Part shown: positions 29,698-54,715 of the stretch, piece after piece | Position numbering within the stretch: the first letter of the stretch is position 1 | Layout: each line of letters begins with the position of its first letter | Assembly: GCA_963578775.1 (NCBI GenBank) | Contig: CAUZEG010000001.1 | Location: forward strand, 22,041-86,040 | DNA from: Myxococcales bacterium | GTDB taxonomy: Bacteria > Myxococcota_A > UBA9042 > UBA3505 | Length of the DNA stretch: 64,000 nt | Reading direction: 5' to 3' | Notes under the pieces: generated by a model | The model's database searches: none | Told to the model about the DNA's origin: nothing | The model's input: only the letters and a program-made list of their open reading frames with translations | Translations under genes and position numbers: made by a program

Positions 29698-32600
29698 TCA
29701 GGGCTGAATACAGAGGGTTTCATAATGCACTTCAATCTCCTGGCCAGGCTGCGGCATGCAAGCGCCATTCTCATCAAAGATGATACTGTTGGATGGGATG
29801 TCGAAGCTCCACCCCTGGTTGCACGGTACGCCATCAATTTTCACGCTGATGGAGTTTGGTTGGGCCAGGCGGGTAAGGAAAAACTGTTTCTTCAAGCCGA
29901 AGGCGATCTCACCGATTTCATCCAGAATACTGCTGTAATTGGAGGCGCAAATAGATGCGTTGACACCGCCTGTTTCCAGGGACACCTGTTGGTAGGTTGG
30001 CGCAGCATCGGCGGCTCCGTATTGGCTGTCACAGCCGCCCGGGACGTCGCCTACGATGGTATGGACGTGAATAAGATCTTCATTGGCGAACCCTTTCAGG
30101 TTTTTGAAGAAGTCGATATAGAAGCTCAGCTCGGCAGGAGACTGGTCCTCTTCATCCGAAATCATAACGATTTCAAGAGCCGCGTCCTCACGTAGGAAGC
30201 CCCAGTTGGCACCTCCGCAGTACTTTGTGGCGCCCGATACGTCGAGGGGATCCCCGTAGCAGCCGCCCGGTGAACAGGCCGCGTCGCTTCCGCAGGAGAT
30301 GGGATTACCCTGGGCGTCTTGCGCCAGATGCGTATTGGGAAGAGTCAGTGCCAGATAGGCGGCTTCAAGACCTTCTTCGGTGCCAGATCCGTTGTCTCCA
30401 ACATTCTTGACGTTGTTCGCAAACGCAGCCAGGCCATTGGGCGTCAGTGGGGTAACAAATCTCGGAGAGCCAAGAAAACGTCCACTGTCGTTGCCGATAT
30501 CCGTGGTGGTCACGGCGAGCTGATAGTTGGTGTTCCAGGCCTGGGCCGCTGCCACCATGCTATCGATGTTGTTGGCGATGTTGTTTTGCTCGTCGCTCAT
30601 GGAGCCGGAGTTGTCGACTACGAACAGGACGTCTACATCCTGGCCGGTCAGCTGGATGAACACATCGGTCTGTTCGATGTCATAGGTGCCTTCACCATGC
30701 ATGGGTACGGTAAGCGCCGGTATATTGGGATCGTCCGATTCCACAATCACCGTACAATGATCGATGCCAAGATTCTGTGGCACATACCGGACTTCCAGCT
30801 TCATTGGGCTTCCTTGAACCAGGACGCCCGGCAGCGGAGGACTGGAAATCAAGTCGAATTCGCTGCTGCAGCCATTATCAAGGTAGATATCGGTCACATT
30901 CAAGGGAGCGTTTCCCTTATTATAGATTGTAACCTCCGTATCCAATGAGGCGCACCCCACGGTAATCACCCCGAATTCAACCTCTTGTGGAATCACTGCG
31001 ATATCGCTGATTCCACTGGCTGCAATCAGGTTCGGATTTATCGAAGACGCGCCAGGTACCGCATCCGTGGGCGCCCACACGGCGTTTCCGTTGACGACGT
31101 CGAACATCTTCATATGAAGGAGGCCTCGATAATTGTCGAACTCCTCGCCAAAGATGCTGGCGTCGGGTGGGGGAGTAAACCGGATTTTAAGGGTTGAGGA
31201 TTCTCCCGGGTTAAGCACCATGGGCGGTGGAACCGCCAGCGCCATGAAGTTTTGACTACTCTGCGCCATCGAGCCTTCACCCGGTGTGCAACCGAAAGAG
31301 AATGGCCCAAAGCTCATGCAGTCAACGATTCGGAGCCGGTCCGGGTCTTCGAAACCAGGGATCTGGCATGCACCGCTTCCCACATTCGTGGCTTTTACGT
31401 CCATGATCTTGATCTTGCCATGGGGAACAATACCGTACTGTATGACCGGGGGAGAAAAGGCGACCTTACATTCCGCCGTTGCGGCAAGATGGGCGATCAT
31501 ACATTTCTGGATCGATGGATTGACCGGATCGTTGGTTTCTATATTCAGGGTGCCCTGTTTGGGGGGGCCAGTACCGAAGTTATTGTTAAAGGTCACCGTG
31601 AACTCGATGGCCGTTCCCGGCTCGACGGTTCCCGGTGCGGGGGGCGATCCCGTAGGAGCAAATCCTGGTACGGGTATGAGATTGAATCCATCTCCGTTCG
31701 CCGTGATACTTGAAACATGGAGTGGAGCGGACCCGCCATTGTACAGGGTAACAACCCTCTCGGTCATTAGACCGATGGCGGTGAATCCGAAGTCGACACA
31801 TCCGGAAGGTGTTATCAGTAGGGATGGGCTGTTTTCTCGTGCGTATACCGGGATCACCACGATGGGTTCGTCGGCATCATTGCTTGCAATGGACACCCCG
31901 CCTACGTTCACAGTACCCGAGCCGAAGGCCTCGGTAGGATCAAAAGCAACGCGCAGAACCAACGGCTCATTCACGGCCAGCAGGACCGGGAATGCGTTCG
32001 GTAGATCCAGGATTGTAAGACCAGCATTCGATCCCAGCGCAGGTTCAATGCTGGTTACCGTCAGTTCAATACTGCCTTGATTTACGACCAGGAGTTCGGC
32101 TTCGGCATGGCCGCCGACCTCTACGTAATCGAGATCGACCACCCCCGGGCTTACGACAATTTCCGGACCGCGCTCGCTCCCGGTTACGCCCACTTCGACG
32201 ACCGGAAGAACAGAGTTGGACAAGGTGATCAAGGCGACACCATGATCGGCATCACCACCGCTCGGATTATAGATGAAATCGACCGTGGCGCGCCCTTCCG
32301 GCGCCAGGTCAAAGGGAACTTGCAGCGTCACTCCGTCTACATCGTGGATGCTGCCAATGGAAAAGTCGGGACTCGCGTCTTCACGCCAGTTGAGCGAGGT
32401 AATCGTCAAAACATCCGAGCCGGCATTGATCAATTCGGCAGACTTGCCGGCCGGAGTTCCCCCGGCCGTTGGCCCAAAGTTGACCGGGTTGGGTAGCACC
32501 AGCAGGGATCCTTCCTGCGGGAGCGCACTGACCGAGATAATCACATCATCTCGGCCCGGTGATAGGGCATTGTGCTTGATCACAATGTTGTCAAAGTCCT

Positions 32601-32964
32601 GTACATCGTCAGTCGGTGTGTAGCAGACATTGACGACCATGGTCTCGCCCGGAGCCGCGGATAAATCATCCGGCAAAACCAGAGAGAAGTCACCTGTCAC
32701 GGACTCCAGGGCGACGCTAGACAGCTCAAGGAATGCCTCGGTACCCGAATGACTGATCGCCAATTCCTGACATTCGGTCTCGAACGGGGCTACGGCACCA
32801 AAGCTGATGAACTCTGGGCTAACGGAAATACCGATATCCTTGTCAATACAGAAACTGCCCGTGCAGTTGCCGGACCCGTTATTGTCAGAGCCACAGGATG
32901 CGAACAGGAATAGCAGGGAAATCAGTGTTGACAGAACTGTCTGTCGGCGGGCGACAAAGGCCAT
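29698..32964 (-). CDS. Giant secreted lipoprotein (1088 aa) with multiple Ig-like repeats and a C-terminal von Willebrand factor A domain
   Basis: Lipobox FASCGS; at least 6 LxIxNxGxxxLxV-type repeats; MIDAS motif DVLFVVDNSGSM near residue 770; Cys-rich C-terminal end. Confidence 0.65.
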   Translation of the reverse strand: MAFVARRQTVLSTLISLLFLFASCGSDNNGSGNCTGSFCIDKDIGISVSPEFISFGAVAPFETECQELAISHSGTEAFLELSSVALESVTGDFSLVLPDDLSAAPGETMVVNVCYTPTDDVQDFDNIVIKHNALSPGRDDVIISVSALPQEGSLLVLPNPVNFGPTAGGTPAGKSAELINAGSDVLTITSLNWREDASPDFSIGSIHDVDGVTLQVPFDLAPEGRATVDFIYNPSGGDADHGVALITLSNSVLPVVEVGVTGSERGPEIVVSPGVVDLDYVEVGGHAEAELLVVNQGSIELTVTSIEPALGSNAGLTILDLPNAFPVLLAVNEPLVLRVAFDPTEAFGSGTVNVGGVSIASNDADEPIVVIPVYARENSPSLLITPSGCVDFGFTAIGLMTERVVTLYNGGSAPLHVSSITANGDGFNLIPVPGFAPTGSPPAPGTVEPGTAIEFTVTFNNNFGTGPPKQGTLNIETNDPVNPSIQKCMIAHLAATAECKVAFSPPVIQYGIVPHGKIKIMDVKATNVGSGACQIPGFEDPDRLRIVDCMSFGPFSFGCTPGEGSMAQSSQNFMALAVPPPMVLNPGESSTLKIRFTPPPDASIFGEEFDNYRGLLHMKMFDVVNGNAVWAPTDAVPGASSINPNLIAASGISDIAVIPQEVEFGVITVGCASLDTEVTIYNKGNAPLNVTDIYLDNGCSSEFDLISSPPLPGVLVQGSPMKLEVRYVPQNLGIDHCTVIVESDDPNIPALTVPMHGEGTYDIEQTDVFIQLTGQDVDVLFVVDNSGSMSDEQNNIANNIDSMVAAAQAWNTNYQLAVTTTDIGNDSGRFLGSPRFVTPLTPNGLAAFANNVKNVGDNGSGTEEGLEAAYLALTLPNTHLAQDAQGNPISCGSDAACSPGGCYGDPLDVSGATKYCGGANWGFLREDAALEIVMISDEEDQSPAELSFYIDFFKNLKGFANEDLIHVHTIVGDVPGGCDSQYGAADAAPTYQQVSLETGGVNASICASNYSSILDEIGEIAFGLKKQFFLTRLAQPNSISVKIDGVPCNQGWSFDIPSNSIIFDENGACMPQPGQEIEVHYETLCIQP

Positions 32965-35837: not shown

Positions 35838-37628
35838 ATGAAAACAGTCTTGAATTCTCCGAAATCTGTTCAACAAATCGTATATGCCGTTGTCATTTTG
35901 TGGCTGGTGTCCAGCCTGAGTATGCTTGGCTGTGATATGACGGCCAAGTTCCACGTCAAGCGTATTAAATTTGATCGTATGCAGGCCGTTTCGATGTTCC
36001 CGGCCGAACAAACGCCCAACGGATTCCAACGAGTCTGTAGCGGTCCGGCTCAGTATATCGAACTCAACATGAACTTCGTGTCCACCGAACGAACGGAGAG
36101 TGGTTCCGGTCAGGCCGAGGATCCGGATAAGGACCGTTCGATTCGCCCCGGCGACACCGTCGCAAAGGGAGCCGAACGTGAAGTGGTGGAAGAGGGTGTT
36201 ACGGTAACCAAGGACACGATTGACATCGAAATGGACTGTATCGAGTCCTATCCGGATACAGACCTTACCGGTGCCCAGTCCTGTTCCGATCTGTCGGAGC
36301 CTGCGTCTCCGATGCAGACCCTCAACTACAAAGAGATTACCGCCAGTCGGAACCACCATGTATCTGTTGCCCTTGTTATTGACGATACCGGCTCGATGCT
36401 CGGACTCGTAAATAAGGGGGATTACAAAGAAGAGCGTGCTGCGGCCACCGAGTGCTTATTGCTCTCCAATATCTCCAGTTATGGTTCCGATACCAAACGC
36501 TATCGACTGAGTGAGGGGAAAACCTTCATCAACAGTCTGAACGATGACGATGAACTCATCCTCTACAGCTATAACGGCGAGGCGGGAGTGAAAGTCGTAT
36601 GCACCGAGACGGCTGAGACCGAGTTGGAGCGTGCCAACAAATGTTTCGGTACGCGCCGAGATATTTTTGTGAACGCAACCAGTCAGCTCACCGGCACGGC
36701 CAGTGATCGCAGTAATCTGTGGGATGCAGCGGCCACGGCCTGGGATTTTCTGAAGGAAAAGGCGACGGGTGAAAAGCATATTCTGATCGTCAACGATGGC
36801 CCCGACACCTGTACGGCCAGCGAAGACTATCGGCGCGGCGTCCCGGCCTGTTCCGCAACGGGCTACGACGACTTCCTTGAGATCATCGAGGAGGAATTCG
36901 CAACGCACCAGATCCATGTGTCGTTCATCCAGTTTCAGGGCTACGCCTATCGCGACCATGATCCCCGCCAATGGGAAGCAGCCTGTCTGACGGGTGGTCA
37001 GTATGTGTTCATCAACAGCGAAGATCTTCCCCATGACGGGGGTGGCCTTCGTGACGCCCTACGCGAGGCATTTAGTAAGGTACGGTACACCTTGGCTGGA
37101 TCCTGGCGTGCCATCACCAAGGTACCCTCCTTCGAGAGCGATGATGTAGGAGGTGCTTCGCCGGGCGCCATGTATGCAGTCGCCGGTGGCATAACCTTGA
37201 ATGCCGGCACGATATTCAAGGATCCGTCTGTGTACCAGGCGTTCCGCATTAATGGTGCGGACGACAACCGGATGGCCCTTCGAAAGTCCTGTGCAGACCA
37301 TGCCGAATGCACCGCCAGCTTCGACGCCTGTCAAAGCCCCTGTTCACCCGAGTCGAGTATCTGTACGGATCATCGTACTGAGGTTGCAGCTGGGGAATTT
37401 TATATCGTTCCGGACGGTAGCGCGTGTACCGATGCTTCGGCCGGCATTTGTTGCGATGCCACGTGTTCGGATATCGCCGAATGTTCTGCTCCTGCGCCGA
37501 CCGCATGTACCGAAGACCAGGATTGTAACCAGGGTGATTTGTGTATCCCTGGCGATTCATTTTGTTCATGGCAGCTCTGCTCCGGCAACACGAGTGTTTG
37601 TTATGAATGCCACGAACAGGCCCCCTGA
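35838..37628 (+). CDS. VWA-domain lipoprotein with Cys-rich C-terminal module (CglB-like adhesin candidate)
   Basis: Signal + lipobox (SMLGCD); MIDAS motif VALVIDDTGSM; about 20 Cys in the last 120 aa; first gene of the Glt/Nfs-like operon. Confidence 0.6.
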   Translation: MKTVLNSPKSVQQIVYAVVILWLVSSLSMLGCDMTAKFHVKRIKFDRMQAVSMFPAEQTPNGFQRVCSGPAQYIELNMNFVSTERTESGSGQAEDPDKDRSIRPGDTVAKGAEREVVEEGVTVTKDTIDIEMDCIESYPDTDLTGAQSCSDLSEPASPMQTLNYKEITASRNHHVSVALVIDDTGSMLGLVNKGDYKEERAAATECLLLSNISSYGSDTKRYRLSEGKTFINSLNDDDELILYSYNGEAGVKVVCTETAETELERANKCFGTRRDIFVNATSQLTGTASDRSNLWDAAATAWDFLKEKATGEKHILIVNDGPDTCTASEDYRRGVPACSATGYDDFLEIIEEEFATHQIHVSFIQFQGYAYRDHDPRQWEAACLTGGQYVFINSEDLPHDGGGLRDALREAFSKVRYTLAGSWRAITKVPSFESDDVGGASPGAMYAVAGGITLNAGTIFKDPSVYQAFRINGADDNRMALRKSCADHAECTASFDACQSPCSPESSICTDHRTEVAAGEFYIVPDGSACTDASAGICCDATCSDIAECSAPAPTACTEDQDCNQGDLCIPGDSFCSWQLCSGNTSVCYECHEQAP

Positions 37629-37679
37629 TTGTTCTCCTATCTCTGTATTTCTCCGTAGTTCTTGAAAAAGGTCGAAACG

Positions 37680-38405
37680 ATGAAGAAAAATCGTATCGTA
37701 GCTCTCTTCACCATCGTACTACTTGCGTTTGGTGCTGTGTCGTTCAACCCGACGACCGGATTCGCAAAAGATACCAACTCGGTGGATGAGGCCTTCGACC
37801 TCTACTGGGCTAAGAAGCGAGCTATTCGTGTCATTCAGAAGCGTAAGTACCTCAAGGAAAATCGCACCGAGTTGTTTTTCCAGTCTGGTGTGATTCCAAA
37901 CGATGACTTTTGGCTGTACATCCCGATTGGTGTCGGGGCCACCTATTTCATCTCGGAAGCAATCGGGATAGAGTTGGAAGGATCCTACATCCATCCGAAG
38001 CGTAGTGAGTTGAAAGGCTTTCTGGAGGCTAACAAACTCGATGTGGGATTGCCGCAGTATCTTGTTTATCACGGTACCTTGAGCGGCATGTGGAGCCCGG
38101 CCCACGGAAAGATTGGCTTCTTCTCGTCAAAGCTCGTTCATTTTGATCTATCGTTTTCCTTCGGCATTGGTGTGATGGGAACCATGGTGGATCGGGATGG
38201 TGATGGGAAAGAATACGAGCATGCGCCGACCTTTACCGGCGCTCTTGGGGCGGCTTTCCGCCTCTGGTTCTCGGATAAGATCGCCATGCGAATTGGGTAT
38301 CGACACTATTTCCATCCGGCCGATCAAGAAGCTGTTGGTGGAGGCGTGTCCTTCCCGGCCGAGTTCTTTGTCGGTGCGAGCTTTCTCACCGGCGGAACGG
38401 AATAG
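37680..38405 (+). CDS. Small outer-membrane beta-barrel protein (GltA/GltB/NfsA/NfsB-like)
   Basis: Signal peptide IVALFTIVLLAFGAVS with an amphipathic alternating beta-strand pattern. ATG at 37680 with an AAAGG RBS is preferred over the TTG at 37662. Confidence 0.55.
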   Translation: MKKNRIVALFTIVLLAFGAVSFNPTTGFAKDTNSVDEAFDLYWAKKRAIRVIQKRKYLKENRTELFFQSGVIPNDDFWLYIPIGVGATYFISEAIGIELEGSYIHPKRSELKGFLEANKLDVGLPQYLVYHGTLSGMWSPAHGKIGFFSSKLVHFDLSFSFGIGVMGTMVDRDGDGKEYEHAPTFTGALGAAFRLWFSDKIAMRIGYRHYFHPADQEAVGGGVSFPAEFFVGASFLTGGTE

Positions 38406-38427
38406 GCGCACCGTTGGTTAGATTAGA

Positions 38428-40356
38428 TTGGACGCTTACAGCCAGGAAGACAGTATGAAAGCTCGCCAGAAACAACTTCTTGTTCCGTTCGTTATGTTGA
38501 CGCTGCTGCTTGTAGCCGGGACCGGTTCCGCCTTGGCGATTACAAAGGCGCAGATTATCCAGCTTACGGAGTTGGAGGTGCCCGCGTCTGTGATCCTCAA
38601 AAAGATGAACAAAGATAGAACGGTCTTCAAGCTTTCGCCGACAGAGATCTATGAGCTGAAGAAAAAGGGAGTGGATGCCGCAGTCATCAATTTGATGCTG
38701 GCCTCACCGGAGAAGTTCAAGACCAAAGGCGCGGCGACGACGACAACCCCAAAGAAGACAGAACCGACCCTCACTCCGGAGATGAAAGCGGCGCAAGAGG
38801 AACGTATGCGCAAAGAGGCCCAGCGCCTCGCCGAGCAGCTGGAGAAACGGCGAGCTCGTCAGCGTAGGGTCTATGCCCAGGGTGTTCTAAAGAAGGGAAA
38901 ACAACTGGCAGATAAGGGGCGTTTCGTTGAATCCATCAAGAAGTTTCAGCGGTTCCTATCGGATGGTTCTTTCGCTCCGGGCAGTGAGGAATACATTATT
39001 GCCCATTACGGAATTGCCAACGCCCTGGTGAAGGCCCGCTTGAATCAAGCGGCAGCGGAAACGCTGGTTCAGGTGTTGATCGCCTCCGATCAGTTGCGTC
39101 AGCTCGCTCCCGAATATGAAGCCCCGTTCTTTGTGCAGGCCTTTCATGACCTGCGCCGCCTTCGTCAAACCGTGGGATACAGTCCACCGGAGCTTGAACA
39201 ACTGACAACGATGGATCCGTCGTTCTTCGGAGCCAAGTTCCAGGACGAGTTCTATTATGTATTGGGCGAATTCTTCTACGAGTCGCAGCGTCCCGAGCGG
39301 GCCGAACCCTATTTCAATCGGATCTCCGACCGGAGCCCAGATTACCCGAAGGCGCTCTATCTGAAATCTCTTCAGCTGGTAGACCAACAGCAGTTCCGGT
39401 CGGCCGCGCAGATGCTGCAAGAGGTGATCATTTCGGCCGAACGAAACGGTACGGAGTACACGGTCATTGAACTTGCATATCTGGCGTTGGCCCGTATTGC
39501 CTATGCCAATAATGATTATTATGCGGCCGTCTTCTATTACAGGAAGATCAACGTGGATTCGGTTCGAGCACCGATCGCGTTTTTTGAGTCTGCCTGGTCC
39601 TATTTCCTGAACGGTGATCGGGTTCGTGCTCTGGGCATGTTCCACGCCTTGCATTCACCGGCTTTGAATCATTATTTCTACCCGGAACTCTGGATTCTTG
39701 AGGCCACAATCTATCTGAACAGTTGCCATTATAAAGAGGCCCGCAAGGCATTGGATATGTTCAATGATAGAGTGGCCGTACTTGCTATCCCGCTCACAAA
39801 ATTCCTCCGAAAGCAACGTAAGCCGCAAGATGCATACAAGGCCGTCATTGCTACGGTTGCTGGCTCACGAAACTACGATCTGCCCCCGGACCTGACCAAG
39901 CCGCTCCTCGCGGATGTACTGTTCTATAATTATTACCGAACGATTCGTCAGGTCGAAAAGGAACAGGTGATCTTAAACAAGGTGAAAGATGACCTGGCTG
40001 GTTTGAGGAATAGTCTGCTTGCCAAGCTTGCTACAGCTCGTGCGAGTACCGTCATTCATGCTGGCATTCGGGTACAGCAGATGTTACGCGCCGTGAAGGG
40101 CGATATTGATAAATACAGTATCAACGTCACGGAGATTGAAATTGACTTGTCCGCGATCGAGATGGAAGCCATTGATGAGGAGACCCGCCGTTTGATGGCA
40201 CAAGAGCAAGAACAGGCTGAAAAACGTCGAAAATCCGCAGAAGGAGCACTGGCGGTTGTCGGCTCCGATTCCATGGCTTGGCCCTTTGAAGGGGAATATT
40301 GGGTCGACGAGATTCCATATTATAGAGCGATGTTGAAAGATAGGTGTGCCCAATGA
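38428..40356 (+). CDS. Secreted TPR-like periplasmic protein (GltC/NfsC-like)
   Basis: Signal peptide (..LLLVAGTGSALA), Thr/Lys-rich linker, then an all-alpha TPR-like region; 642 aa; 13-bp overlap with the next gene. Confidence 0.5.
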   Translation: MDAYSQEDSMKARQKQLLVPFVMLTLLLVAGTGSALAITKAQIIQLTELEVPASVILKKMNKDRTVFKLSPTEIYELKKKGVDAAVINLMLASPEKFKTKGAATTTTPKKTEPTLTPEMKAAQEERMRKEAQRLAEQLEKRRARQRRVYAQGVLKKGKQLADKGRFVESIKKFQRFLSDGSFAPGSEEYIIAHYGIANALVKARLNQAAAETLVQVLIASDQLRQLAPEYEAPFFVQAFHDLRRLRQTVGYSPPELEQLTTMDPSFFGAKFQDEFYYVLGEFFYESQRPERAEPYFNRISDRSPDYPKALYLKSLQLVDQQQFRSAAQMLQEVIISAERNGTEYTVIELAYLALARIAYANNDYYAAVFYYRKINVDSVRAPIAFFESAWSYFLNGDRVRALGMFHALHSPALNHYFYPELWILEATIYLNSCHYKEARKALDMFNDRVAVLAIPLTKFLRKQRKPQDAYKAVIATVAGSRNYDLPPDLTKPLLADVLFYNYYRTIRQVEKEQVILNKVKDDLAGLRNSLLAKLATARASTVIHAGIRVQQMLRAVKGDIDKYSINVTEIEIDLSAIEMEAIDEETRRLMAQEQEQAEKRRKSAEGALAVVGSDSMAWPFEGEYWVDEIPYYRAMLKDRCAQ

Positions 40357-43300
40357 TGCTGTTCGGTCGAACCGTACGCACTTTGCTACTACTCTCCATT
40401 TGCGTGACCATTCCGTTGTCTGCGCACGGCCAGAAGAAGAAGAGCCGTGCTGTAAAGGCGATGAAAGCCGATATGGGTAAAAAGAAGGTCAAGGTCGAGG
40501 AACAAGGTGGTCCCGCGTCCCTGCAAGATGTCGAACAGGCCGCATTGGATGCCCAGGTCAAAGTGAACCTGGAACGAAAATCTACAATTCGTATGGACCA
40601 GATTAGCAAGATGGAGCGTTTGCTTCGTGACAACCCCCATTACCACAATAAGGTCGGTATTTATCACCGGCTGGCAGAAGCCAACTGGCAGGAATCAAAA
40701 TACAGATTCCTGATGAAAATGGACGACTTTCGGAACCAGGTGGACGCCTATGATGCGGGGACACTGAGTCGGGAACCGAAAATGCCGGACGAAAACTATG
40801 AGGTGGCGTTGGAGTTCTACCGTCGAGTTCAACGCCAGTTCCCGGATTATTTCCGTATCGATGAGGTAACCTATTATCTGGCGAAAGGTCTGCTTCTCGA
40901 GGGGAAGAATAAGAAAAACAACAACCTCACCCTTGAAGGAGTGTCCAATCTTTTGAAGGTTGTGAACACCTACCCCAAAAGCCGATTTGTTGCTGAAGCC
41001 TACCTCGCTCTGGCTGAGTACTATTTTGATAGAAGTATGCTCACACAGGCTCGCTTGAAGTATGAGCAGATCATCAACAACCATAAGCGCTCATCCATGT
41101 TTAACTATGCCCTCTATAAACTCGCCTGGGTGTACTATAACCAGAAGGAGATGGAACGTTCGGTCAAGACTTTCAAGAAGGTCGTGAAGGCTGTGACAAG
41201 TTCCGGGGTAGCGGCGAAGATCGAATTCCGCGATCAGGCGCTTAATGATCTGATCCGTGTCTACGCGGAAATGGACGATGGTTGGAAGTTGGCCAAGAAG
41301 TACTTCCTTACCCAGGTGTCAGAAGACGAGACCTATGTGAAGTTGAAGAAATTGGGCAGTCTTCTACTGGGGATGGATCGGGACGAAGAAGCTATCTCGC
41401 TGTACGAGCATTTCCTGAAGAAATTCCCAACGGACAAGATGTGCATCGCATGGTGGGATAATATCCTGAGCGTTCGCGTAGCCCAGGAGGATCTGGGCCA
41501 GCTTGAAAAAGATACCCGGCGCATGGTGGCGTTTATTGGAGCGAAGGGAACCTGGCGAAAAGCCCATTCTATAGATGATGAAGTACTGGAGAATGCCTAC
41601 AAGCTCGGCGAAGGGCGTATGCTGTGGATCGCCAATCAATACCATCGTGAAGCCCAGAGATTACGGAAGCAGAAGCTGTATTTCCGAGCGGCCGATCTCT
41701 ATGAGCTGTTCCTGCGAGAGTTCAATGACAGCGAGAACGCGATTCGCAAGAGTAAGAATGCCTACATGGTCAATTTCTACCTTGCTGAGATCCTCTCGGA
41801 CGAAAAGAAGGACTACAAAAAAGCGCTGGTGCAGTACGAGCGTGTTCTTGAGCGTGATAGAAAAGGTGAATACACCGAGGATGCGGCTCTGGGCGCGGTC
41901 TATTGTTATTACGAGTTGATGTACAAGAAGAATCTTCGTGAACGACCCCGGGGTGGGAAAACCATCGATACGGTCAAGTTGAGCGAAGAGGAATTGAAAG
42001 AGAGCGCCAAGCTCAAGAAGCGGAGCGACTTGGCACCGTTGGAGCAGGGGTTTGTTCAATCCGCCGATGCCTACGTCAATATCGTGCGTGAATGGCTTAA
42101 GGATCCGAAGGTCCGGAGAAAGAACCCAAAGCGTGGTGCGCGAATCCCAGAGATGATGTTTGTGGCCGCGGAGATGTTGTACAACCACGGCCAATATGAA
42201 GAGGCCGTCTCTCGACTCAAGATCATCTTTGAGGACTTTCCGCGACATGAGTTTGCGGCCTGGTCCGTCCAGATGCTGATCGACTGTTATGCCAAGCTGG
42301 CACATTGGGAGAAGGTCGAAAACTGGTCCAACAAGCTTATCAAGGCTCGAAACTTCAAGGTCTTAACCCGGAAGACTCTCAACAAGTTCCGCGCAATTGC
42401 TGTGGGTGAATTGGCTCGAGAGCATGCGTTGAAGAAGGAATACAGCAAAGCGATTTCCCAGTATAAGCGGGTGTATAAGGAATTCCGTCGCGCTCGAAAC
42501 ACGGACGATAAAGAGTTGGCGGCCAATGCCATATTCAACATTGCGGCCATCCATTACCAGGCGAGGGATATTCGCGCTGCCATTAAGACCTACGGGAAGA
42601 TGCGCAAAGAGTTCCCGGCAGCGGAAAAGGCACCGGAAGCACAATACTTGATTGGTGAAATATACGAGAGCCAGACGCAGTTTGTGGATGCAGCCAGGTC
42701 GTTCCTGGTTATGGAAAAATTCAAGTCGGATAGTAGGGCGGCGGATGCTATTTTGAATGCAGGCCTCATTTATGAAGCCGTAGATCGCCCGAAGGACGCA
42801 ATAAAGACCTTTGTGAAGTATCTGAGGCTATTCCCGAAGAAAAAGAATGCGGACAAAGTGTACTTTCGTATTGGACGGGTTCACGAAGATAGCGGTGGTC
42901 GTAGGAATCTGATCAGGGCCAAAGATCACTACATCAAGTTTATTAAGAGATACGCGTCCTCCAAGGTTCTGGTGGTAGAAGCTCACACCCGCGTGGGAGC
43001 GATTCTCCGTAAATTGAACGAAAAGCGAAACCGACGCCATGCCGAGCGGCATTATGGGAAAGCCCAAGTGGTATTTGTCGAGGTCGATCCCAAGGCGACA
43101 GGATTCAAGCAGGCCCAATATTTTGCAGCCCAGGCCAAGTTCGAATTGACCGAGTATTCCTATGCGGACTACGAGGCGATTTCCTTGGACAAGAAGACAA
43201 TGAAAAAGCTTGAGGGAATCAGGGAAAGGGTCACGAAGAAGGCCGAAGCGTTCAAGGCTGTGGAGAATGCCTACCTCTCGATCATGGCGGTCTACAAACA

Positions 43301-43691
43301 GCCACAATGGAATGCAGCGGCTCTGTTTCGTACGGGAATGCTCTATTATAACTTTGTGAACTTCCTCCTCGACGCACCGATTCCGGACGGACTCGACCTC
43401 GATACCGAGGATGCTTATCGTCTGTATCTGGAGCAGCAGGCTAAAATCCCACGGGAAAAGTCCCTGGTCGCGTTTGGTCTTGCTCTGAAATCAGCGCACC
43501 AGATGGAGGTATATAATGACTGGTCGAAGAAGTCGGCTATCTATGCCTCGAAGGTAAATCCCGAGGAATATCCGGTCTCGGATGAAAAGGCCGTACGTAG
43601 TGATCACACGCGCGATACGCTGGGCTCGGCTTCCCTTCTGCGTTATCTGAAGCGCAACAACATCGTCGTTGATATGGCGCCTGCCCAATAG
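40344..43691 (+). CDS. Large secreted TPR-repeat protein (GltD/AgmU/NfsD-like)
   Basis: 1115 aa; signal peptide followed by continuous TPR-like helical repeats. Confidence 0.55.
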   Translation: MCPMMLFGRTVRTLLLLSICVTIPLSAHGQKKKSRAVKAMKADMGKKKVKVEEQGGPASLQDVEQAALDAQVKVNLERKSTIRMDQISKMERLLRDNPHYHNKVGIYHRLAEANWQESKYRFLMKMDDFRNQVDAYDAGTLSREPKMPDENYEVALEFYRRVQRQFPDYFRIDEVTYYLAKGLLLEGKNKKNNNLTLEGVSNLLKVVNTYPKSRFVAEAYLALAEYYFDRSMLTQARLKYEQIINNHKRSSMFNYALYKLAWVYYNQKEMERSVKTFKKVVKAVTSSGVAAKIEFRDQALNDLIRVYAEMDDGWKLAKKYFLTQVSEDETYVKLKKLGSLLLGMDRDEEAISLYEHFLKKFPTDKMCIAWWDNILSVRVAQEDLGQLEKDTRRMVAFIGAKGTWRKAHSIDDEVLENAYKLGEGRMLWIANQYHREAQRLRKQKLYFRAADLYELFLREFNDSENAIRKSKNAYMVNFYLAEILSDEKKDYKKALVQYERVLERDRKGEYTEDAALGAVYCYYELMYKKNLRERPRGGKTIDTVKLSEEELKESAKLKKRSDLAPLEQGFVQSADAYVNIVREWLKDPKVRRKNPKRGARIPEMMFVAAEMLYNHGQYEEAVSRLKIIFEDFPRHEFAAWSVQMLIDCYAKLAHWEKVENWSNKLIKARNFKVLTRKTLNKFRAIAVGELAREHALKKEYSKAISQYKRVYKEFRRARNTDDKELAANAIFNIAAIHYQARDIRAAIKTYGKMRKEFPAAEKAPEAQYLIGEIYESQTQFVDAARSFLVMEKFKSDSRAADAILNAGLIYEAVDRPKDAIKTFVKYLRLFPKKKNADKVYFRIGRVHEDSGGRRNLIRAKDHYIKFIKRYASSKVLVVEAHTRVGAILRKLNEKRNRRHAERHYGKAQVVFVEVDPKATGFKQAQYFAAQAKFELTEYSYADYEAISLDKKTMKKLEGIRERVTKKAEAFKAVENAYLSIMAVYKQPQWNAAALFRTGMLYYNFVNFLLDAPIPDGLDLDTEDAYRLYLEQQAKIPREKSLVAFGLALKSAHQMEVYNDWSKKSAIYASKVNPEEYPVSDEKAVRSDHTRDTLGSASLLRYLKRNNIVVDMAPAQ

Positions 43692-43710
43692 GGATTGGCG
43701 AGGTACGAAT

Positions 43711-45192
43711 ATGAGACGAAACCAACTTTGTTCGATAGCAGTCCTTATTATTTGTGGTGCGAGCTTGATTGCTTGTGGTGGAGCCCAGGTCGCTACGAAG
43801 ACCGATTCGTCGACCACGACCACAACGAAAAAGACAAAGAAGAAAGGTGAAGACCTTACCCGGCGGGCTCCGGTCAAGGAGCGCGTAATCAAGTACGTGG
43901 AAGGAGTGCCGAAGAAGGCTCAGGACTTATTCCGTCAGGGAATGAAAGCCGCCTTGACGGCCCCGCCCAATTACAAAGTGAGCCTGAAGAAATTCCGCAA
44001 GGCCATTGATAAGGACCAGGCGTTTCTGGAGGCCTATACGAATCTCGGGAAGGTGTACGAAAAGTTGCGCAATCTGGAAAAGGCACGCGAAGTATACCTG
44101 GAAGCTCTGGAAAAGAATGGGGACAAGCTGGAGACCCTTCAATACCGTGCTTTTATTGGAAAGCTCTCTCTCATCAATGCGCGTCGGGAATTTGAGAGAG
44201 GCAATCGACCAGAATCCAATCGCTTGATGCAGGAAGGAAAAGACATACTGGACAATGTTCTGGCACGAGACGTGGACAATGTCGCCGCCAACAATGCGAC
44301 TGCGCTGTACTGGTTGGAACGAGACGATCCGAAGAAGGCGGAAGAGTATGTCATTCGTGTACTGGAGCGAGAACCACAAAACACGGAAGCATTGAATACC
44401 CGTGGTCTGATCAATCTCGAACGGGGAAAACTCAAGATTGCGAAGTGGATTTTCGAGCAGAAGGTTCTTTCATTGGACCCCAACAGTCCCGAGGCCCATA
44501 CCAATCTCGGCGTGGTATATGTACGGATGGGGGCTCTTCCGGCTGCTGTTCGATCTTTCAAGACCGCGTTGGATCTGGATCCGGATAATCTGCCCGCTCA
44601 TCTCAATCTGGCCAGCGTACAGTTGAACTGGTTGGACTACTCTGGTGCGGCCGAGCGGTATGAGTTGGTACTCAGTCGTCAGAAGGACAATGTGGAAGCC
44701 TGGATCGGTCTGGGATCATCCCAATGGGGCATGATGAAATTCGAGGATGCAGTGAAGTCCTACGATACCGCTCTGAAGATTGATTCACGCAGGACACCGA
44801 TCCTTCTGAAGATTGCGAAGATCTATGAAACCCACCTCGACAAACTTGATGATGCGATCGCTACTCTGAACAAGTATTTGGATATTACTGGGGAAGGAGC
44901 GGATTCCGCAGTGGGGAAACAGATCAAGATCCTGGTGGATATGAAGAAGATGAACGTCAACATATCTGACGACGATGAGGATGATATGGACGATGATATG
45001 GACGATGATGACGATTCGTCTGATTCCGAGGATCCCAAGACCGAAGACACTCCCAAGACGAAAGATCCGGAAAAATCTGAAGAGCCTGCCAAAAAGGCCG
45101 ATGGCGGTAGTCCCGCCAAGGCCGGTCCAGCGAAGGCAGCTCCTGCCAAGGAAGCCCCAGGAAAAACCGCACCCAAGCCCAGCTCGGATTGA
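43711..45192 (+). CDS. TPR-repeat lipoprotein with acidic and Lys/Ala/Pro-rich C-terminal tail (GltE/AglT/NfsE-like)
   Basis: Start at MRRNQLCS (RBS GGCGAGG); lipobox LIACGG; canonical TPRs; tail DDDEDDMDDDMDDDDD...PAKAGPAKAAPAKEAP. Confidence 0.55.
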   Translation: MRRNQLCSIAVLIICGASLIACGGAQVATKTDSSTTTTTKKTKKKGEDLTRRAPVKERVIKYVEGVPKKAQDLFRQGMKAALTAPPNYKVSLKKFRKAIDKDQAFLEAYTNLGKVYEKLRNLEKAREVYLEALEKNGDKLETLQYRAFIGKLSLINARREFERGNRPESNRLMQEGKDILDNVLARDVDNVAANNATALYWLERDDPKKAEEYVIRVLEREPQNTEALNTRGLINLERGKLKIAKWIFEQKVLSLDPNSPEAHTNLGVVYVRMGALPAAVRSFKTALDLDPDNLPAHLNLASVQLNWLDYSGAAERYELVLSRQKDNVEAWIGLGSSQWGMMKFEDAVKSYDTALKIDSRRTPILLKIAKIYETHLDKLDDAIATLNKYLDITGEGADSAVGKQIKILVDMKKMNVNISDDDEDDMDDDMDDDDDSSDSEDPKTEDTPKTKDPEKSEEPAKKADGGSPAKAGPAKAAPAKEAPGKTAPKPSSD

Positions 45193-45241
45193 AAAGCAGG
45201 TTGAAAGCGTTTAACGTTAAGGAATCAAAAGAGGTCCGATA

Positions 45242-45502
45242 ATGAAACGTAGTTTAGTGATGGCATGTAGCATCGTACTCGCGTTTGCGTTCCTGGGAAC
45301 AGCGATCGCGGCACCACCGAAAGGGGTGAAGGCGAAATTCTACGATTTCTCGGACCAATTGATCGATGGTGAGATCCGACGACCGACAGCGCTGTATACG
45401 GACACGCGTCAGGCCGCAAAATTCCAGCGCCTATTACGGTTGAAGCGTCTTTTCAGCAAGGACGTTCTTCTTAGAACAGCGAAGGATCCGGTCTTTAAAT
45501 AA
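45242..45502 (+). CDS. Small secreted protein (86 aa; GltF/NfsF-like by position and size)
   Basis: Signal peptide MKRSLVMACSIVLAFAFLGTAIA; RBS AAAAGAGG. Confidence 0.45.
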   Translation: MKRSLVMACSIVLAFAFLGTAIAAPPKGVKAKFYDFSDQLIDGEIRRPTALYTDTRQAAKFQRLLRLKRLFSKDVLLRTAKDPVFK

Positions 45503-45602
45503 TGCCTGTTACGGCAGCTGACGAACTTAATTGAACGGCCAACAGTTTGACGTCTAACAAGGCCGCATCTATATTGCGTTTCGGTATCAATGTGGGCGGG
45601 CA

Positions 45603-46322
45603 ATGATTGTTGTCGAGAGTCAGAAACGACGCGGATTCATCGGGCGTCTTGAGACCGGGCAGGATGTTGTAACCGGGATTCGCGACTTTTGTGTTCGTGA
45701 ACGAGTGGAAACAGCCTTTTTCTCGGGTTTTGGCTATGTGTCCAACCCGGTGGTTCGGATTTTTCGCCCCGAACATAAACGCTACCTGAAGGGCGAGGAG
45801 AACCTGACCGGTGATTATTTATTAACGTCTGTTCAGGGTTCTGTTTCCTTCCATCAGGAAGCTCGCGAATTGAATATTGTGGTCACATGCCGTCACGTAG
45901 AAACGGGTGACGTCGTTGTCGCGGAACTGCTTGGCGCGGAGGTTATATCCTTTGAGTTCAGCGTAAGCTCATTCGACGACGTTCGCTTATATCGTGATCA
46001 TGATGAACATACCGGTCTTCGGCAATGGGTGATGATGGAGATGGTGGACGATACCTCGGCCGCCAAGCCAGTTGTGGTATCCGCCAAGCCCGAACCTGTA
46101 GAGACAGTCGAAGAGGAGTCTGTAGAGATCGCCATTGGGGATTTCCTGGAGCATCCTCGTCTTGGCTTATGCGAAGTTATAGAGCTCGTGGGAGATTCAA
46201 GGCTGGCCATACGCCTTCAAACGGATCGAATCGTAGAATTGCACCGGGGTATCATAAATCTCGAACAAACTGGCGAGCGAGATGAACACCGGGTCTTCAA
46301 CGTTTCCATTCGTCGGAAGTAA
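45603..46322 (+). CDS. DUF296/PPC-domain protein with acidic C-terminal extension
   Basis: GRLETGQDVVTGIRDF...VSNPVVRIF...LLTSVQGSVSF...VVVAELLGAEVISFEF matches the PPC/DUF296 beta-sandwich pattern. Confidence 0.45.
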   Translation: MIVVESQKRRGFIGRLETGQDVVTGIRDFCVRERVETAFFSGFGYVSNPVVRIFRPEHKRYLKGEENLTGDYLLTSVQGSVSFHQEARELNIVVTCRHVETGDVVVAELLGAEVISFEFSVSSFDDVRLYRDHDEHTGLRQWVMMEMVDDTSAAKPVVVSAKPEPVETVEEESVEIAIGDFLEHPRLGLCEVIELVGDSRLAIRLQTDRIVELHRGIINLEQTGERDEHRVFNVSIRRK

Positions 46323-48629: not shown

Positions 48630-48648
48630 ACGTCAAAGACTCCTGACG

Positions 48649-54712: not shown

Positions 54713-54715
54713 GAA

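What the first reader, a model, noticed from the sequence alone, without database searches (positions are those of the whole stretch)
35838..46322. Glt/Nfs-like envelope-spanning complex operon with a CglB-like VWA lipoprotein
Seven co-directional, tightly spaced plus-strand genes encode a Cys-rich VWA lipoprotein (MIDAS DDTGSM), a 242-aa OM beta-barrel, three secreted TPR proteins of 642, 1115 and about 494 aa, an 86-aa secreted protein and a DUF296 protein. The order (beta-barrel, C, D, E, F) and sizes mirror the Myxococcus xanthus NfsA/B-C-D-E-F sporulation complex and its gliding paralogs GltA/B, GltC, GltD/AgmU, GltE/AglT and GltF. The M. xanthus sizes are recalled from memory (about 250-280, 670, 1200, 480 and 85 aa) and are approximate. 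The VWA lipoprotein resembles the gliding adhesin CglB in domain logic (VWA plus many Cys), but in M. xanthus cglB is not linked to the glt genes, so the physical linkage here would be new. The inner-membrane partners (GltG/I/J, AglRQS) are not in the window, which suggests either a minimal periplasmic/OM module or that the rest is encoded elsewhere.
Basis: partly seen in the sequence, partly recalled or inferred. Interest (0 to 1): 0.78.

Follow-up and report, generated by a model that had tools for sequence, protein, structure and literature searches.

The report
Gliding-machine operon with its own adhesin
An uncultured marine relative of the myxobacteria encodes the outer-membrane and periplasmic parts of the Myxococcus "focal-adhesion" gliding machine in one operon headed by a cysteine-rich, integrin-like (VWA) surface lipoprotein, and this layout recurs in dozens of uncultured Myxococcota genomes, whereas in Myxococcus the adhesin gene sits apart from the machine genes.

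Summary
Six of the seven plus-strand genes (35838-45502) form a conserved block: a VWA lipoprotein, one GltA/B-type barrel, GltC-, GltD- and GltE-like TPR proteins, and a GltF/CglF-like 86-aa protein. Curated HMMs hit GltC (1.7e-43), GltE (3.9e-34), CglF (3e-7) and the myxobacterial barrel domain (82 bits, above its cutoff). The 1115-aa protein aligns end to end with D proteins of clusters that also carry ExbB/ExbD motors and GltG. The seventh gene (DUF296/PCC) is never syntenic, so I exclude it.

VWA-then-barrel order holds in 49 of 65 related loci, and the full colinear block in 36 of 47, all from uncultured Myxococcota. Three divergent Ig-repeat lipoproteins, one with a CglD-like VWA, are often attached.

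No motor or GltG/GltJ gene lies in the window.

Verdict: a new variant of the Glt system, a compact adhesin-plus-transducer module. Gliding or adhesion function is inferred, not shown.

The parts
35838..37628 (+). Cys-rich VWA lipoprotein (596 aa) and candidate surface adhesin. Layout: lipobox Cys32, N-terminal beta-sandwich (about residues 43-166), VWA domain (about 175-430), small beta domain, Cys-rich tail (485-596).
36381..36398 (+). MIDAS motif DDTGSM (D-x-T-x-S variant of D-x-S-x-S)
   Evidence: One search gives the position. The column is conserved as D-Q-S-G-S in the family.
37662..38405 (+). Single GltA/GltB/NfsA/NfsB-type outer-membrane beta-barrel (247 aa, or 241 aa from the ATG at 37680)
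   Evidence: TIGR04565 OMP_myx_plus hit at 3.6e-23, 82.3 bits, above the curated cutoff of 60. Pfam OMP_b-brl hit at 1.9e-4. It is homologous to both barrels of the canonical cluster L081 and to both barrels of L084. The single-sequence AF2 model was uninformative (pLDDT 34).
38428..40356 (+). GltC-like periplasmic TPR protein (642 aa)
   Evidence: NF033756 gliding_GltC hit at 1.7e-43, 149 bits, covering model positions 107-619 of 622. This is below the equivalog cutoff of 450. It is 30-31% identical end to end to the C proteins of L083 and L084.
40344..43691 (+). GltD/NfsD-like long TPR protein (1115 aa), the presumed central periplasmic pillar
   Evidence: It is 24% identical over 1061 aa to L081_D (E 1e-63) and 26% over 1090 aa to L082_D (E 4e-73). 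Both lie in clusters with ExbB/ExbD genes and a GltG-like gene, FHA-bearing in L081. The search found 177 homologues. Its YbgF-type TPR units exceed the TIGR02795 cutoff (104 bits against 90).
43669..45192 (+). GltE-like TPR lipoprotein (507 aa from TTG; probable ATG start at 43711, 493 aa; lipobox SLIAC) with an acidic, low-complexity C-terminal tail
   Evidence: NF033758 gliding_GltE hit at 3.9e-34, 118 bits, covering model positions 6-373 of 411. This is below the cutoff of 225.
45242..45502 (+). GltF/CglF-like small secreted protein (86 aa)
   Evidence: NF033764 gliding_CglF hit at 3e-7, 30 bits against a cutoff of 90. It is 45% identical to the F protein of L083, which itself hits CglF at 7.9e-11. 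It is conserved after E in relatives at 44-75% identity. CglF is GltF according to PMC4488436.
32990..35443 (-). Divergent Ig-repeat (choice-of-anchor D) lipoprotein 'up1' (probable ATG start at 35305; lipobox LTIGC)
   Evidence: NF012200 hit at 1.3e-12. It sits divergent from the VWA gene in 22 of 55 related loci with enough upstream sequence.
29698..32964 (-). Divergent 1088-aa lipoprotein 'up2': three choice-of-anchor D Ig domains plus a C-terminal MIDAS VWA domain (DNSGSM at residue 784). The VWA half is CglD-like.
   Evidence: NF012200 hit at 2.2e-37. NF033765 gliding_CglD hit at 1.9e-9 (residues 760-1009 against model positions 629-875 of 1124). NF052240 Bdellovibrio MIDAS adhesin hit at 8.5e-13. 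Lipobox LFASC. Conserved in relatives at 25-40% identity.
27461..29590 (-). Divergent 709-aa Cys-rich Ig-repeat lipoprotein 'up3' (lipobox VLTAC)
   Evidence: NF012200 hit at 8.2e-6. Conserved next to LexA in about a dozen related loci.

Best explanation
The block 35838-45502 encodes the outer-membrane and periplasmic half of an Agl-Glt-type trans-envelope force transducer, together with its own surface adhesin.

Shown:
- The barrel, C, D, E and F proteins are homologues of GltA/B, GltC, GltD, GltE and GltF.
- The first gene encodes a lipoprotein with a MIDAS-bearing VWA fold and 26 cysteines in the mature protein.
- The six genes are kept in this order across dozens of uncultured Myxococcota.

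Inferred by analogy with M. xanthus (PMC9946355, PMC11761067):
- The single barrel sits in the outer membrane, and the GltC-like protein docks beneath it.
- The GltD-like solenoid forms the periplasmic shaft. The GltE-like lipoprotein binds it, and the GltF-like peptide bridges C to the TonB-like domain of an inner-membrane partner.
- The VWA lipoprotein is passed to the cell surface through or alongside the barrel. There its disulfide-stabilised VWA domain binds the substratum or prey through its MIDAS site.
- The three divergently transcribed Ig-repeat lipoproteins, one with a CglD-like beta-I-type VWA, act as accessory surface adhesins.
- Power would come from a TolQR/ExbBD-like AglRQS motor and a GltG/GltJ-type protein encoded elsewhere in the genome.

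The likely output is surface gliding and/or force-coupled attachment to particles or prey.
For: - HMM hits to GltC, GltE, CglF and OMP_myx_plus.
- Full-length homology of D to D proteins in motor-bearing clusters.
- The only specific NCBIfam family touched by the VWA family is CglB.
- Synteny: the barrel follows the VWA gene in 49 of 65 loci, and the colinear AB-C-D-E block is present in 36 of 47. A metagenomic relative at 30% identity has an identical nine-gene layout.
- A more distant cluster, L083, has a 410-aa VWA lipoprotein at the same position. It is homologous by hhalign (98.7%, E 2.7e-16), and that cluster continues with a GltJ-like gene.
- The upstream protein up2 hits CglD and a Bdellovibrio MIDAS adhesin.
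- In M. xanthus, CglB is loaded on and retained by the GltABHK-C platform (PMC9946355, PMC11761067).
Against: - No AglRQS, GltG or GltJ homologue is in the 64-kb window or in the 10-kb flanks of the 78 related loci, apart from one GltG-like gene in L078. A motor connection is therefore unproven.
- All HMM scores for C, E and F are below the equivalog cutoffs, so these are distant family members of untested function.
- GltK and GltH, both needed for CglB display in M. xanthus, were not found.
- The VWA protein is not a CglB orthologue, and its surface exposure is pure inference.
- The closest relatives come from a planktonic size fraction of a Tara Oceans sample, where gliding is not an obvious lifestyle.
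- Nothing here separates a motility role from an Nfs-like polymer-handling role.
Confidence: 0.62

Rival explanations
1. This is an Nfs-like, non-motility machine. The same A/B-C-D-E-F module, driven by a Tol/Exb-type motor, moves or anchors a surface polymer (capsule, spore coat, exopolysaccharide). The VWA and Ig lipoproteins bind that polymer rather than an external substratum.
For: The contiguous barrel-C-D-E-F order is that of nfsA-H, and in M. xanthus Agl-Nfs transports spore-coat polymer (PMC3858216, listed). Luciano et al. state that the conserved core occurs in many non-gliding bacteria with unknown function. The relatives are marine and planktonic.
Against: No NfsG/H equivalents and no polysaccharide-synthesis genes lie next to the block. 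The conserved partners are MIDAS-VWA and Ig-repeat lipoproteins, which are typical adhesins, including a CglD-like one. The HMMs that hit are the gliding models, but no Nfs-specific models exist in NCBIfam for comparison.
Confidence: 0.2
2. This is a motor-independent adhesin-display or outer-membrane tethering module. In this clade the block has lost its link to GltG/J and AglRQS. It serves only to export, hold and present VWA and Ig adhesins, or to tether the outer membrane in the manner of Tol-Pal/YbgF, without directed force transmission.
For: GltJ-like genes follow F in the more distant clusters L083 and L084. No GltG/J or motor gene is adjacent in any of the roughly 50 loci of the window's VWA family. 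D carries YbgF-type TPR units above the TIGR02795 cutoff.
Against: In M. xanthus the motor (M1) and the G1 and G2 clusters are also unlinked, so absence from the operon says little. GltD, GltE and GltF have no known role other than coupling to GltG/J. Keeping all three over deep divergence argues that the coupling is retained.
Confidence: 0.13
3. This is a generic TPR/VWA lipoprotein operon (for example Bat-like aerotolerance or an unrelated TPR scaffold) with only superficial resemblance to Glt.
For: Many generic TPR models also hit C, D and E. The VWA protein has no Pfam or NCBIfam hit of its own.
Against: The near-full-length hits to the GltC and GltE models are the top hits and far exceed the generic TPR models in coverage. 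The CglF hit, the barrel-domain hit above threshold, and the end-to-end D homology with motor-linked clusters are specific. No MoxR, DUF58 or BatA-type genes are present.
Confidence: 0.03

Closest known systems
Myxococcus xanthus Agl-Glt gliding (bacterial focal adhesion) machinery, outer-membrane and periplasmic modules GltA/B/H/K, GltC, GltD, GltE, GltF
   Same: Homologues of the A/B barrel, C, D, E and F are all present with matching sizes (NCBIfam model lengths are GltC 622, GltE 411 and CglF 88). E is a lipoprotein, as GltE is. All have export signals.
   Different: There is one barrel instead of the interdependent GltA-GltB pair. GltH and GltK were not found. The genes are contiguous, rather than split into the G1 and G2 clusters. 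GltG, GltI, GltJ and AglRQS are not linked. Scores fall below the equivalog cutoffs. An adhesin gene heads the operon.
CglB, the VWA outer-membrane lipoprotein adhesin of M. xanthus gliding (NF033757; PMC9946355)
   Same: It is a lipoprotein with a MIDAS-bearing VWA domain, many cysteines that probably form disulfides, and a functional or genomic association with Glt. CglB is the only specific NCBIfam family touched by the window protein's family.
   Different: The window protein does not hit the CglB model, and the best relative scores 23 bits against a cutoff of 200, within the VWA half only. It is 596 aa against about 402-416. It has an extra roughly 125-aa N-terminal beta-sandwich before the VWA domain and a roughly 110-aa Cys-rich tail. 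It has 26 mature cysteines against 16. It is encoded in the glt operon, whereas I know of no report linking M. xanthus cglB to glt genes (my own knowledge; the papers read here report co-occurrence only).
CglD, the beta-integrin-like VWA lipoprotein of M. xanthus (NF033765; bioRxiv 10.1101/2023.10.19.562135)
   Same: The upstream protein at 29698-32964 is a lipoprotein of similar length (1088 aa against 1130). Its C-terminal MIDAS VWA region aligns to CglD model positions 629-875.
   Different: Its N-terminal half consists of choice-of-anchor D (ASH/HYDIN-type Ig) repeats, not the COMP-like Ca-binding region. The score is far below the cutoff (36 bits against 400).
M. xanthus Nfs sporulation complex (NfsA-H; PMC3858216)
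   Same: It has a contiguous barrel-C-D-E-F order, and it is paralogous to Glt.
   Different: The window has no second barrel and no G or H genes. Nfs has no adhesin partner, whereas this block carries two VWA lipoproteins. No test here separates Nfs-type from Glt-type ancestry.
'Expanded core' Glt clusters outside Myxococcus (for example Bdellovibrio Bd0828-0838; PMC3169522) and the metagenomic clusters L081 and L082
   Same: They share a contiguous A/B-C-D-E-F layout.
   Different: Those clusters carry the ExbB/ExbD motor and/or GltG next to F, and no VWA lipoprotein sits at the head of L081 or L082. The window's type has the adhesin but no motor or G gene.

Membership tests
Agl-Glt / Nfs family of envelope-spanning complexes | GltC-family periplasmic TPR protein | tested here: met
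   NF033756 hit at 1.7e-43, covering model positions 107-619 of 622. The score of 149 bits is below the equivalog cutoff of 450, so it is a homologue, not an equivalog.
Agl-Glt / Nfs family of envelope-spanning complexes | GltD/NfsD-family TPR protein of about 1100-1200 aa, located between C and E | tested here: met
   No NCBIfam model matched the D protein. End-to-end alignments to the D proteins of L081 (E 1e-63) and L082 (E 4e-73), which lie in clusters with ExbB/ExbD and GltG. Not compared directly with the M. xanthus GltD sequence, which was unavailable.
Agl-Glt / Nfs family of envelope-spanning complexes | GltE-family TPR lipoprotein | tested here: met
   NF033758 hit at 3.9e-34, covering model positions 6-373 of 411 (118 bits, cutoff 225). 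Lipobox SLIAC.
Agl-Glt / Nfs family of envelope-spanning complexes | GltF/CglF small secreted protein | tested here: met
   NF033764 hit at 3e-7 (30 bits, cutoff 90). The hit is weak on its own, but it is supported by position, size, a signal peptide and 45% identity to the L083 F protein, which hits CglF at 7.9e-11.
Agl-Glt / Nfs family of envelope-spanning complexes | GltA/GltB-type OM beta-barrel (TIGR04565 domain) | tested here: met
   82.3 bits, above the curated cutoff of 60. Only one copy is present, whereas M. xanthus needs both A and B.
Agl-Glt / Nfs family of envelope-spanning complexes | GltG (and GltJ) TonB/TolA-like inner-membrane coupling protein | tested here: not met
   None is in the window. 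All ORFs of 180 aa or more were scanned, and tblastn with four GltG/GltJ-like queries found nothing. The rest of the genome could not be searched.
Agl-Glt / Nfs family of envelope-spanning complexes | AglRQS (TolQ/TolR, ExbB/ExbD-type) proton-driven motor | tested here: not met
   There is no MotA_ExbB or ExbD hit in the window, and tblastn with the L081 ExbD and the L082 MotA/ExbD proteins found nothing. Presence elsewhere in the genome is not testable with these tools.
Agl-Glt / Nfs family of envelope-spanning complexes | GltK lipoprotein and GltH barrel of the M. xanthus OM platform | tested here: inconclusive
   There is no second barrel and no extra small lipoprotein in the block. The presumptive H protein of L081 finds nothing. 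No GltK or GltH model hit was seen. Luciano et al. consider K and H to be late Myxococcales additions.
CglB adhesin (NF033757) | Score at or above the curated equivalog cutoff of the CglB model | tested here: not met
   The window protein gives no hit even at E of 1 or below. Three of 31 family members hit, the best being P0019 at 23.2 bits against a cutoff of 200, aligning residues 170-362 to model positions 23-223 of 402.
CglB adhesin (NF033757) | OM lipoprotein signal (lipobox Cys) | tested here: met
   LSMLGC with Cys32, which is nearly invariant in the family.
CglB adhesin (NF033757) | VWA domain with a complete MIDAS | tested here: met
CglB adhesin (NF033757) | Many cysteines consistent with disulfide stabilisation (16 in CglB besides the lipobox Cys) | tested here: met
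   26 cysteines in the mature protein, about 17 of them invariant in 31 homologues. Disulfide bonding itself was not tested.
CglB adhesin (NF033757) | Architecture: about 400-aa protein, with the VWA starting soon after the lipobox plus a small beta-jellyroll | tested here: not met
   The protein is 596 aa, with a roughly 125-aa beta-sandwich before the VWA and a Cys-rich tail of about 110 aa. In the CglB model the MIDAS region lies at positions 29-55.
CglB adhesin (NF033757) | Association with the Glt machinery | tested here: met
   The association is stronger than the co-occurrence reported for CglB. The gene is operon-adjacent to the barrel gene in 49 of 65 loci.
CglB adhesin (NF033757) | Surface exposure and substratum adhesion at focal adhesions | not testable with these tools
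   This needs protease shaving, immunolabelling and motility assays.
CglD adhesin (NF033765), for the upstream protein 29698-32964 | Lipoprotein with a C-terminal beta-I-like MIDAS VWA | tested here: met
   Lipobox LFASC and DNSGSM at residue 784. CglD model positions 629-875 are aligned at 1.9e-9.
CglD adhesin (NF033765), for the upstream protein 29698-32964 | N-terminal COMP-like Ca-binding half, and an equivalog-level score | tested here: not met
   The N-terminal half is three choice-of-anchor D Ig domains. The score is 36 bits against a cutoff of 400.

The most novel reading that the evidence does not exclude
This family of operon-encoded, Cys-rich VWA lipoproteins (272 cluster representatives, essentially all from uncultured Myxococcota) is the original adhesin of Glt-type machines, and CglB and CglD of Myxococcus are dispersed, remodelled descendants or replacements. 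If so, adhesin-transducer coupling is older than the Myxococcus gliding apparatus. A minimal outer-membrane platform of one barrel plus GltC, without GltK, GltH or a second barrel, would then be enough to load and present a VWA adhesin. Marine, apparently planktonic Myxococcota would use this for force-coupled attachment to particles or prey.
Probability: 0.3. Interest if true: 0.7.

Novelty: new variant of a known kind. Interest (0 to 1): 0.55.

Why it matters
In M. xanthus the gliding adhesin CglB was tied to the Glt machine only through genetics, biochemistry and genome co-occurrence, and its gene sits apart from the glt clusters. Here a VWA lipoprotein is the first gene of a barrel-C-D-E-F operon, and this holds in about 50 loci from uncultured Myxococcota. 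This is independent comparative evidence that a MIDAS adhesin belongs with the Glt outer-membrane and periplasmic module.

The cluster also defines a simpler natural version of the outer-membrane platform, with one barrel and no GltK or GltH. That version could make the adhesin-loading step easier to reconstitute and model.

It also adds a large, unannotated protein family (currently labelled 'hypothetical' or 'VWA domain-containing') that can serve as a marker for Glt-type surface machinery in metagenomes.

It is an incremental finding, not a new kind of system.

Tried and rejected
- The first genome-contig scan with the single VWA protein found nothing. The alignment-based scan worked.
- Re-searching the 5.8-billion-protein set with alignment A1 returned only the same family and no named CglB. 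The profile search of 1.84 billion representatives listed only strong in-family hits in its top 150, so CglB-level relatives could not be retrieved.
- The homologue search with the D protein returned no protein named GltD, AgmU or NfsD. Identity was established through the genomic context of distant hits instead.
- The single-sequence AF2 model of the barrel was useless (pLDDT 34).
- Promoter and terminator scans gave counts no higher than shuffled controls. A promoter-like site at 45547-45575 in front of the DUF296 gene is only suggestive.
- I looked for a recurrent neighbour of the 'solo' VWA paralogues and found none. The apparent GltG hit in L038 is a VIT-VWA protein that shares only the AgmX/PglI C-terminal domain.
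- I rejected DUF296/PCC as part of the system (never syntenic), a Bat-like aerotolerance operon (no MoxR, DUF58 or BatA), and a generic TPR operon.
- I could not decide between Glt and Nfs orthology because no M. xanthus sequences were accessible.

Full report
**1. What is in the sequence**

The region 35838-46322 holds seven co-directional plus-strand ORFs of 596, 247, 642, 1115, 507, 86 and 239 aa. They are separated by 33, 22, -13, -23, 49 and 100 nt. The window is about 54% G+C. The 40-46 kb stretch is lower (0.50) and purine-rich on the coding strand, which fits the Lys/Glu-rich TPR proteins encoded there.

Export signals can be read directly from the translations. The 596-aa protein has a lipoprotein signal (…LSMLGC32/DMT). 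The 507-aa protein has one after the internal ATG at 43711 (…GASLIAC/GG). The 247-, 642-, 1115- and 86-aa proteins have Sec-type signals. The 239-aa protein has none.

**2. Identity of the genes**

Pfam sees only TPRs, a weak OMP_b-brl hit and the PCC/DUF296 domain. NCBIfam is more specific.

| Protein | Model | E-value | Bits / cutoff | Model coverage |
|---|---|---|---|---|
| 642 aa | NF033756 GltC | 1.7e-43 | 149 / 450 | 107-619 of 622 |
| 507 aa | NF033758 GltE | 3.9e-34 | 118 / 225 | 6-373 of 411 |
| 86 aa | NF033764 CglF | 3e-7 | 30 / 90 | 36-82 of 88 |
| 247 aa | TIGR04565 OMP_myx_plus | 3.6e-23 | 82 / 60 | 2-159 of 161 |

CglF is GltF (PMC4488436). The barrel exceeds its curated cutoff. 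The GltC, GltE and CglF scores are below the equivalog cutoffs, so these are distant homologues, not equivalogs.

No dedicated NCBIfam model matched the 1115-aa protein, so I tested it by context. Its 177 homologues include distant ones, 23-28% identical over about 90% of the length. Their genomic context is as follows:
- L081: ExbB, ExbD, then two barrels, C, D, E, F, FHA-GltG, a 242-aa protein and an Ig protein.
- L082: a 260-aa protein (no Pfam or BLAST match) in the barrel position, then C, D, E, F, MotA/ExbB, ExbD, ExbD and a GltG-like protein.

The window protein aligns with these D proteins over 1061 and 1090 residues (E 1e-63 and 4e-73 in a small database). It is therefore a GltD/NfsD-family protein and not merely a TPR protein. 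Its YbgF-type TPR units exceed the TIGR02795 cutoff. That fits the Tol-Pal ancestry of the system and the role of GltD as the partner of the TolA/TonB-like GltG (PMC11761067).

**3. The VWA lipoprotein**

The 596-aa protein has no Pfam or NCBIfam hit of its own, but it does have 40 homologues. The closest is 88% identical and comes from a Tara Oceans station-034 DCM 0.22-1.6 µm scaffold. The sequence is also held in NCBI; the near-identical D protein (93%) carries the WGS prefix MDTE01. Many homologues carry PF13519 (VWA_2).

The 31-sequence alignment A1 shows these conserved features:
- the lipobox Cys
- a conserved mature N-terminus, C-D-x-T-A
- the MIDAS triad D182-x-S/T184-x-S186 (DDTGSM in the window, nt 36381-36398)
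- conserved GRSNLW and DGPDTC motifs, which I take to supply the remaining MIDAS ligands (inference)
- about 17 invariant cysteines

**4. Relation to CglB**

CglB of M. xanthus is a lipoprotein with a VWA domain plus a small beta-jellyroll, a MIDAS, a lipobox Cys20 and 16 further cysteines (PMC9946355). The CglB model NF033757 is the only specific family that any A1 member touches. However, only 3 of 31 members hit it. The best is P0019, at 23 bits against a cutoff of 200. That alignment covers only model positions 23-223 of 402, which is the first half of the VWA domain. The window protein itself does not hit the model.

The architecture also differs. The window protein has an extra N-terminal beta-sandwich and a Cys-rich tail, and it is 596 aa against about 402-416. 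So the protein works on the same domain logic as CglB but fails the membership test. It represents a separate family. That family has 272 representatives (50%-identity clusters) at E of 1e-3 or below and 187 at 1e-30 or below, among 1.84 billion representatives.

**5. Synteny**

An alignment-based scan of one genome per GTDB species found 78 loci. All are in uncultured MAGs labelled Myxococcota, Myxococcales or Deltaproteobacteria, with a few obviously mislabelled. Several MAGs carry 2-4 copies.

tblastn with the window proteins gave these counts.

| Test | Loci with enough flank | Loci that pass |
|---|---|---|
| Barrel gene directly follows the VWA gene | 65 | 49 |
| Colinear barrel-C-D-E block present | 47 | 36 |
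| Upstream 817-aa gene sits divergent from the VWA gene | 55 | 22 |

F follows E wherever the contig continues. About a dozen loci keep the whole series LexA, up3, up2, up1, then (divergently) VWA, barrel, C, D, E, F. One example is the metagenomic locus L002, at 30% VWA identity. The DUF296 gene was found in none of these loci, and in many relatives a DEAD-box helicase follows F instead.

Sixteen 'solo' VWA paralogues lie in unrelated contexts with no recurrent neighbour.

Two more distant clusters bridge to the canonical type.
- L083 has three divergent ASH/Ig proteins, a 410-aa VWA lipoprotein, a barrel, C, D, E, F and a GltJ-like protein. The VWA lipoprotein matches A1 by hhalign at 98.7% probability, E 2.7e-16, from the lipobox to beyond the VWA domain. 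The GltJ-like protein hits NF033761 at 3e-48.
- L084 has a 568-aa lipoprotein, two barrels, C, D, E, F and a GltJ-like protein.

A VWA lipoprotein at the head of a glt-type operon is therefore a recurrent and deeply conserved arrangement.

**6. The upstream genes**

The three divergent genes (27461-29590, 29698-32964, 32990-35443) all encode lipoproteins with choice-of-anchor D Ig-like domains. The 1088-aa protein also ends in a MIDAS VWA domain (DNSGSM at residue 784). That domain hits the CglD model at positions 629-875 of 1124 (1.9e-9) and the Bdellovibrio MIDAS-adhesin model (8.5e-13).

CglD is a 1130-aa beta-integrin-like lipoprotein that stabilises focal adhesions. Its N-terminal half is COMP-like (bioRxiv 10.1101/2023.10.19.562135). 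In the window protein, Ig repeats take that place. The locus therefore encodes two VWA lipoproteins analogous to the two known Myxococcus gliding adhesins.

**7. What is missing**

Every ORF of 180 aa or more in the 64-kb window was scanned. The remainder is housekeeping:
- nuo-like genes, 2-oxoacid dehydrogenase and PFOR
- purA, hisS, serA and pfk
- recA and lexA
- a glutamine-synthetase-like gene
- a pilin-like cluster and a multihaem cytochrome

There is no MotA/ExbB, ExbD, TonB-like, GltG or GltJ gene. tblastn with such proteins from L081-L084 found nothing in the window, and almost nothing in the flanks of the 78 loci. GltK and GltH were not found either.

In M. xanthus the motor and the two glt clusters are also unlinked (PMC3169522). 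Absence from the window therefore does not show absence from the genome, and I could not search the genome.

**8. Mechanism, with shown and inferred steps separated**

Shown: homology of five proteins to GltA/B, C, D, E and F; a lipoprotein with a MIDAS VWA fold and conserved cysteines; and conserved operon structure.

Inferred from the M. xanthus biochemistry and structural model:
- The barrel anchors the module in the outer membrane.
- C docks beneath the barrel.
- D forms the periplasmic shaft, with E bound to it.
- F bridges C to the TonB-like domain of an inner-membrane partner.
- The VWA lipoprotein is displayed at the surface through the barrel and binds the substratum or prey through its MIDAS site.
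- The Ig and VWA lipoproteins add adhesion.
- An AglRQS-like motor elsewhere supplies force.

I put the Glt-family assignment at about 0.9, the VWA protein being a functional partner and adhesin of the module at about 0.7, and the complete motor-coupled gliding or adhesion model at about 0.6.

Rival explanations are an Nfs-like polymer-handling role (0.2), a motor-independent display or tethering module (0.13) and a generic TPR operon (0.03, contradicted).

**9. Novelty**

The Glt system and its spread beyond Myxococcus are known (PMC3169522). A recent survey also notes A-motility homologues in uncultured Myxococcota classes (bioRxiv 10.64898/2026.07.10.737566).

Luciano et al. reported CglB only in Myxococcales, excluding Anaeromyxobacter. 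Islam et al. reported genome co-occurrence with Agl-Glt, not linkage. Full-text searches found no paper that describes a VWA lipoprotein gene inside glt clusters.

I therefore rate this as a new variant of a known kind. It is a compact glt operon with a single barrel, no GltK or GltH, and its own distinct, so far unnamed family of adhesin-like VWA lipoproteins, often with a CglD-like neighbour. It is of moderate interest to specialists and does not change any concept.

Noticed in passing
window 45603-46322 (+): The PCC/DUF296 gene (239 aa, PF03479 at 1.7e-11) has no signal peptide. It is preceded by a promoter-like site at 45547-45575 and is absent from all 78 related loci. It is a neighbour of the glt-type block, not a member.
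   Followed up: yes
window 50736-57672 (-): A run of six minus-strand genes. Two encode proteins with N-terminal methylation (pilin-like) motifs (56418-57098, 57019-57672). Four encode proteins with no hit in the libraries they were scanned against (388, 180, 1064 and 261 aa). This may be a minor-pilin plus large tip-protein (PilY1-like) set or a pseudopilus cluster.
   Followed up: no
window 47682-50661 (-): Unusual complex I-like genes. There is a 670-aa NuoH homologue with a roughly 290-aa N-terminal extension, and a 315-aa NuoI-like ferredoxin with an extra RnfB-like C-terminal region. They are not flanked by the other nuo genes; a NuoB-like gene lies far away at 1221-1775.
   Followed up: no
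window 60349-63696 (-): A 1115-aa multihaem cytochrome c with cbb3/FixO-like, c7-like and MtrC/MtrF-like domains. This is unexpected for a planktonic marine Myxococcota-like organism.
   Followed up: no
window 26668-27333 (-) and loci L002, L007-L009, L016, L022, L025, L027, L028, L060, L074: lexA sits immediately beyond the third Ig-lipoprotein gene. This holds in the window and in about a dozen relatives whose VWA proteins are only about 30% identical. That is unusually deep conservation of a housekeeping neighbour next to the adhesin/glt supercluster.
   Followed up: partly
L083 15671-17419 and L084 15382-17487: GltJ-like genes directly follow gltF in these clusters. They have a zinc ribbon and an AgmX/PglI C-terminal domain, and hit NF033761 at about 1e-48. 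L083 also has flagellar rod genes nearby. Luciano et al. placed the origin of gltJ in the Myxococcales ancestor, so the taxonomy of these MAGs would be worth checking.
   Followed up: partly
L001 10001-21632; L078 6939-10762: 'Solo' paralogues of the VWA lipoprotein occur in other contexts. One lies next to FG-GAP (integrin-alpha-like) repeat proteins, including a 5806-aa giant. Another is divergent from a GltG-like 504-aa gene. One MAG (CAZQPP) carries at least four copies (L003-L006).
   Followed up: partly
window 40000-46000: A local composition shift: G+C about 0.50 against 0.53-0.55 elsewhere, with GC skew of +0.10 to +0.13 and AT skew of +0.08 to +0.13. It coincides with the Lys/Glu-rich GltD- and GltE-like genes, where K+E makes up 18% of residues. 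This looks like a coding-composition effect and not foreign DNA.
   Followed up: partly
window 12672-15050 (-): A 792-aa protein with a Porphyromonas-type peptidyl-arginine/agmatine deiminase domain (PF04371 at 8e-32) that occupies only the middle of the protein. The flanking regions are unassigned.
   Followed up: no
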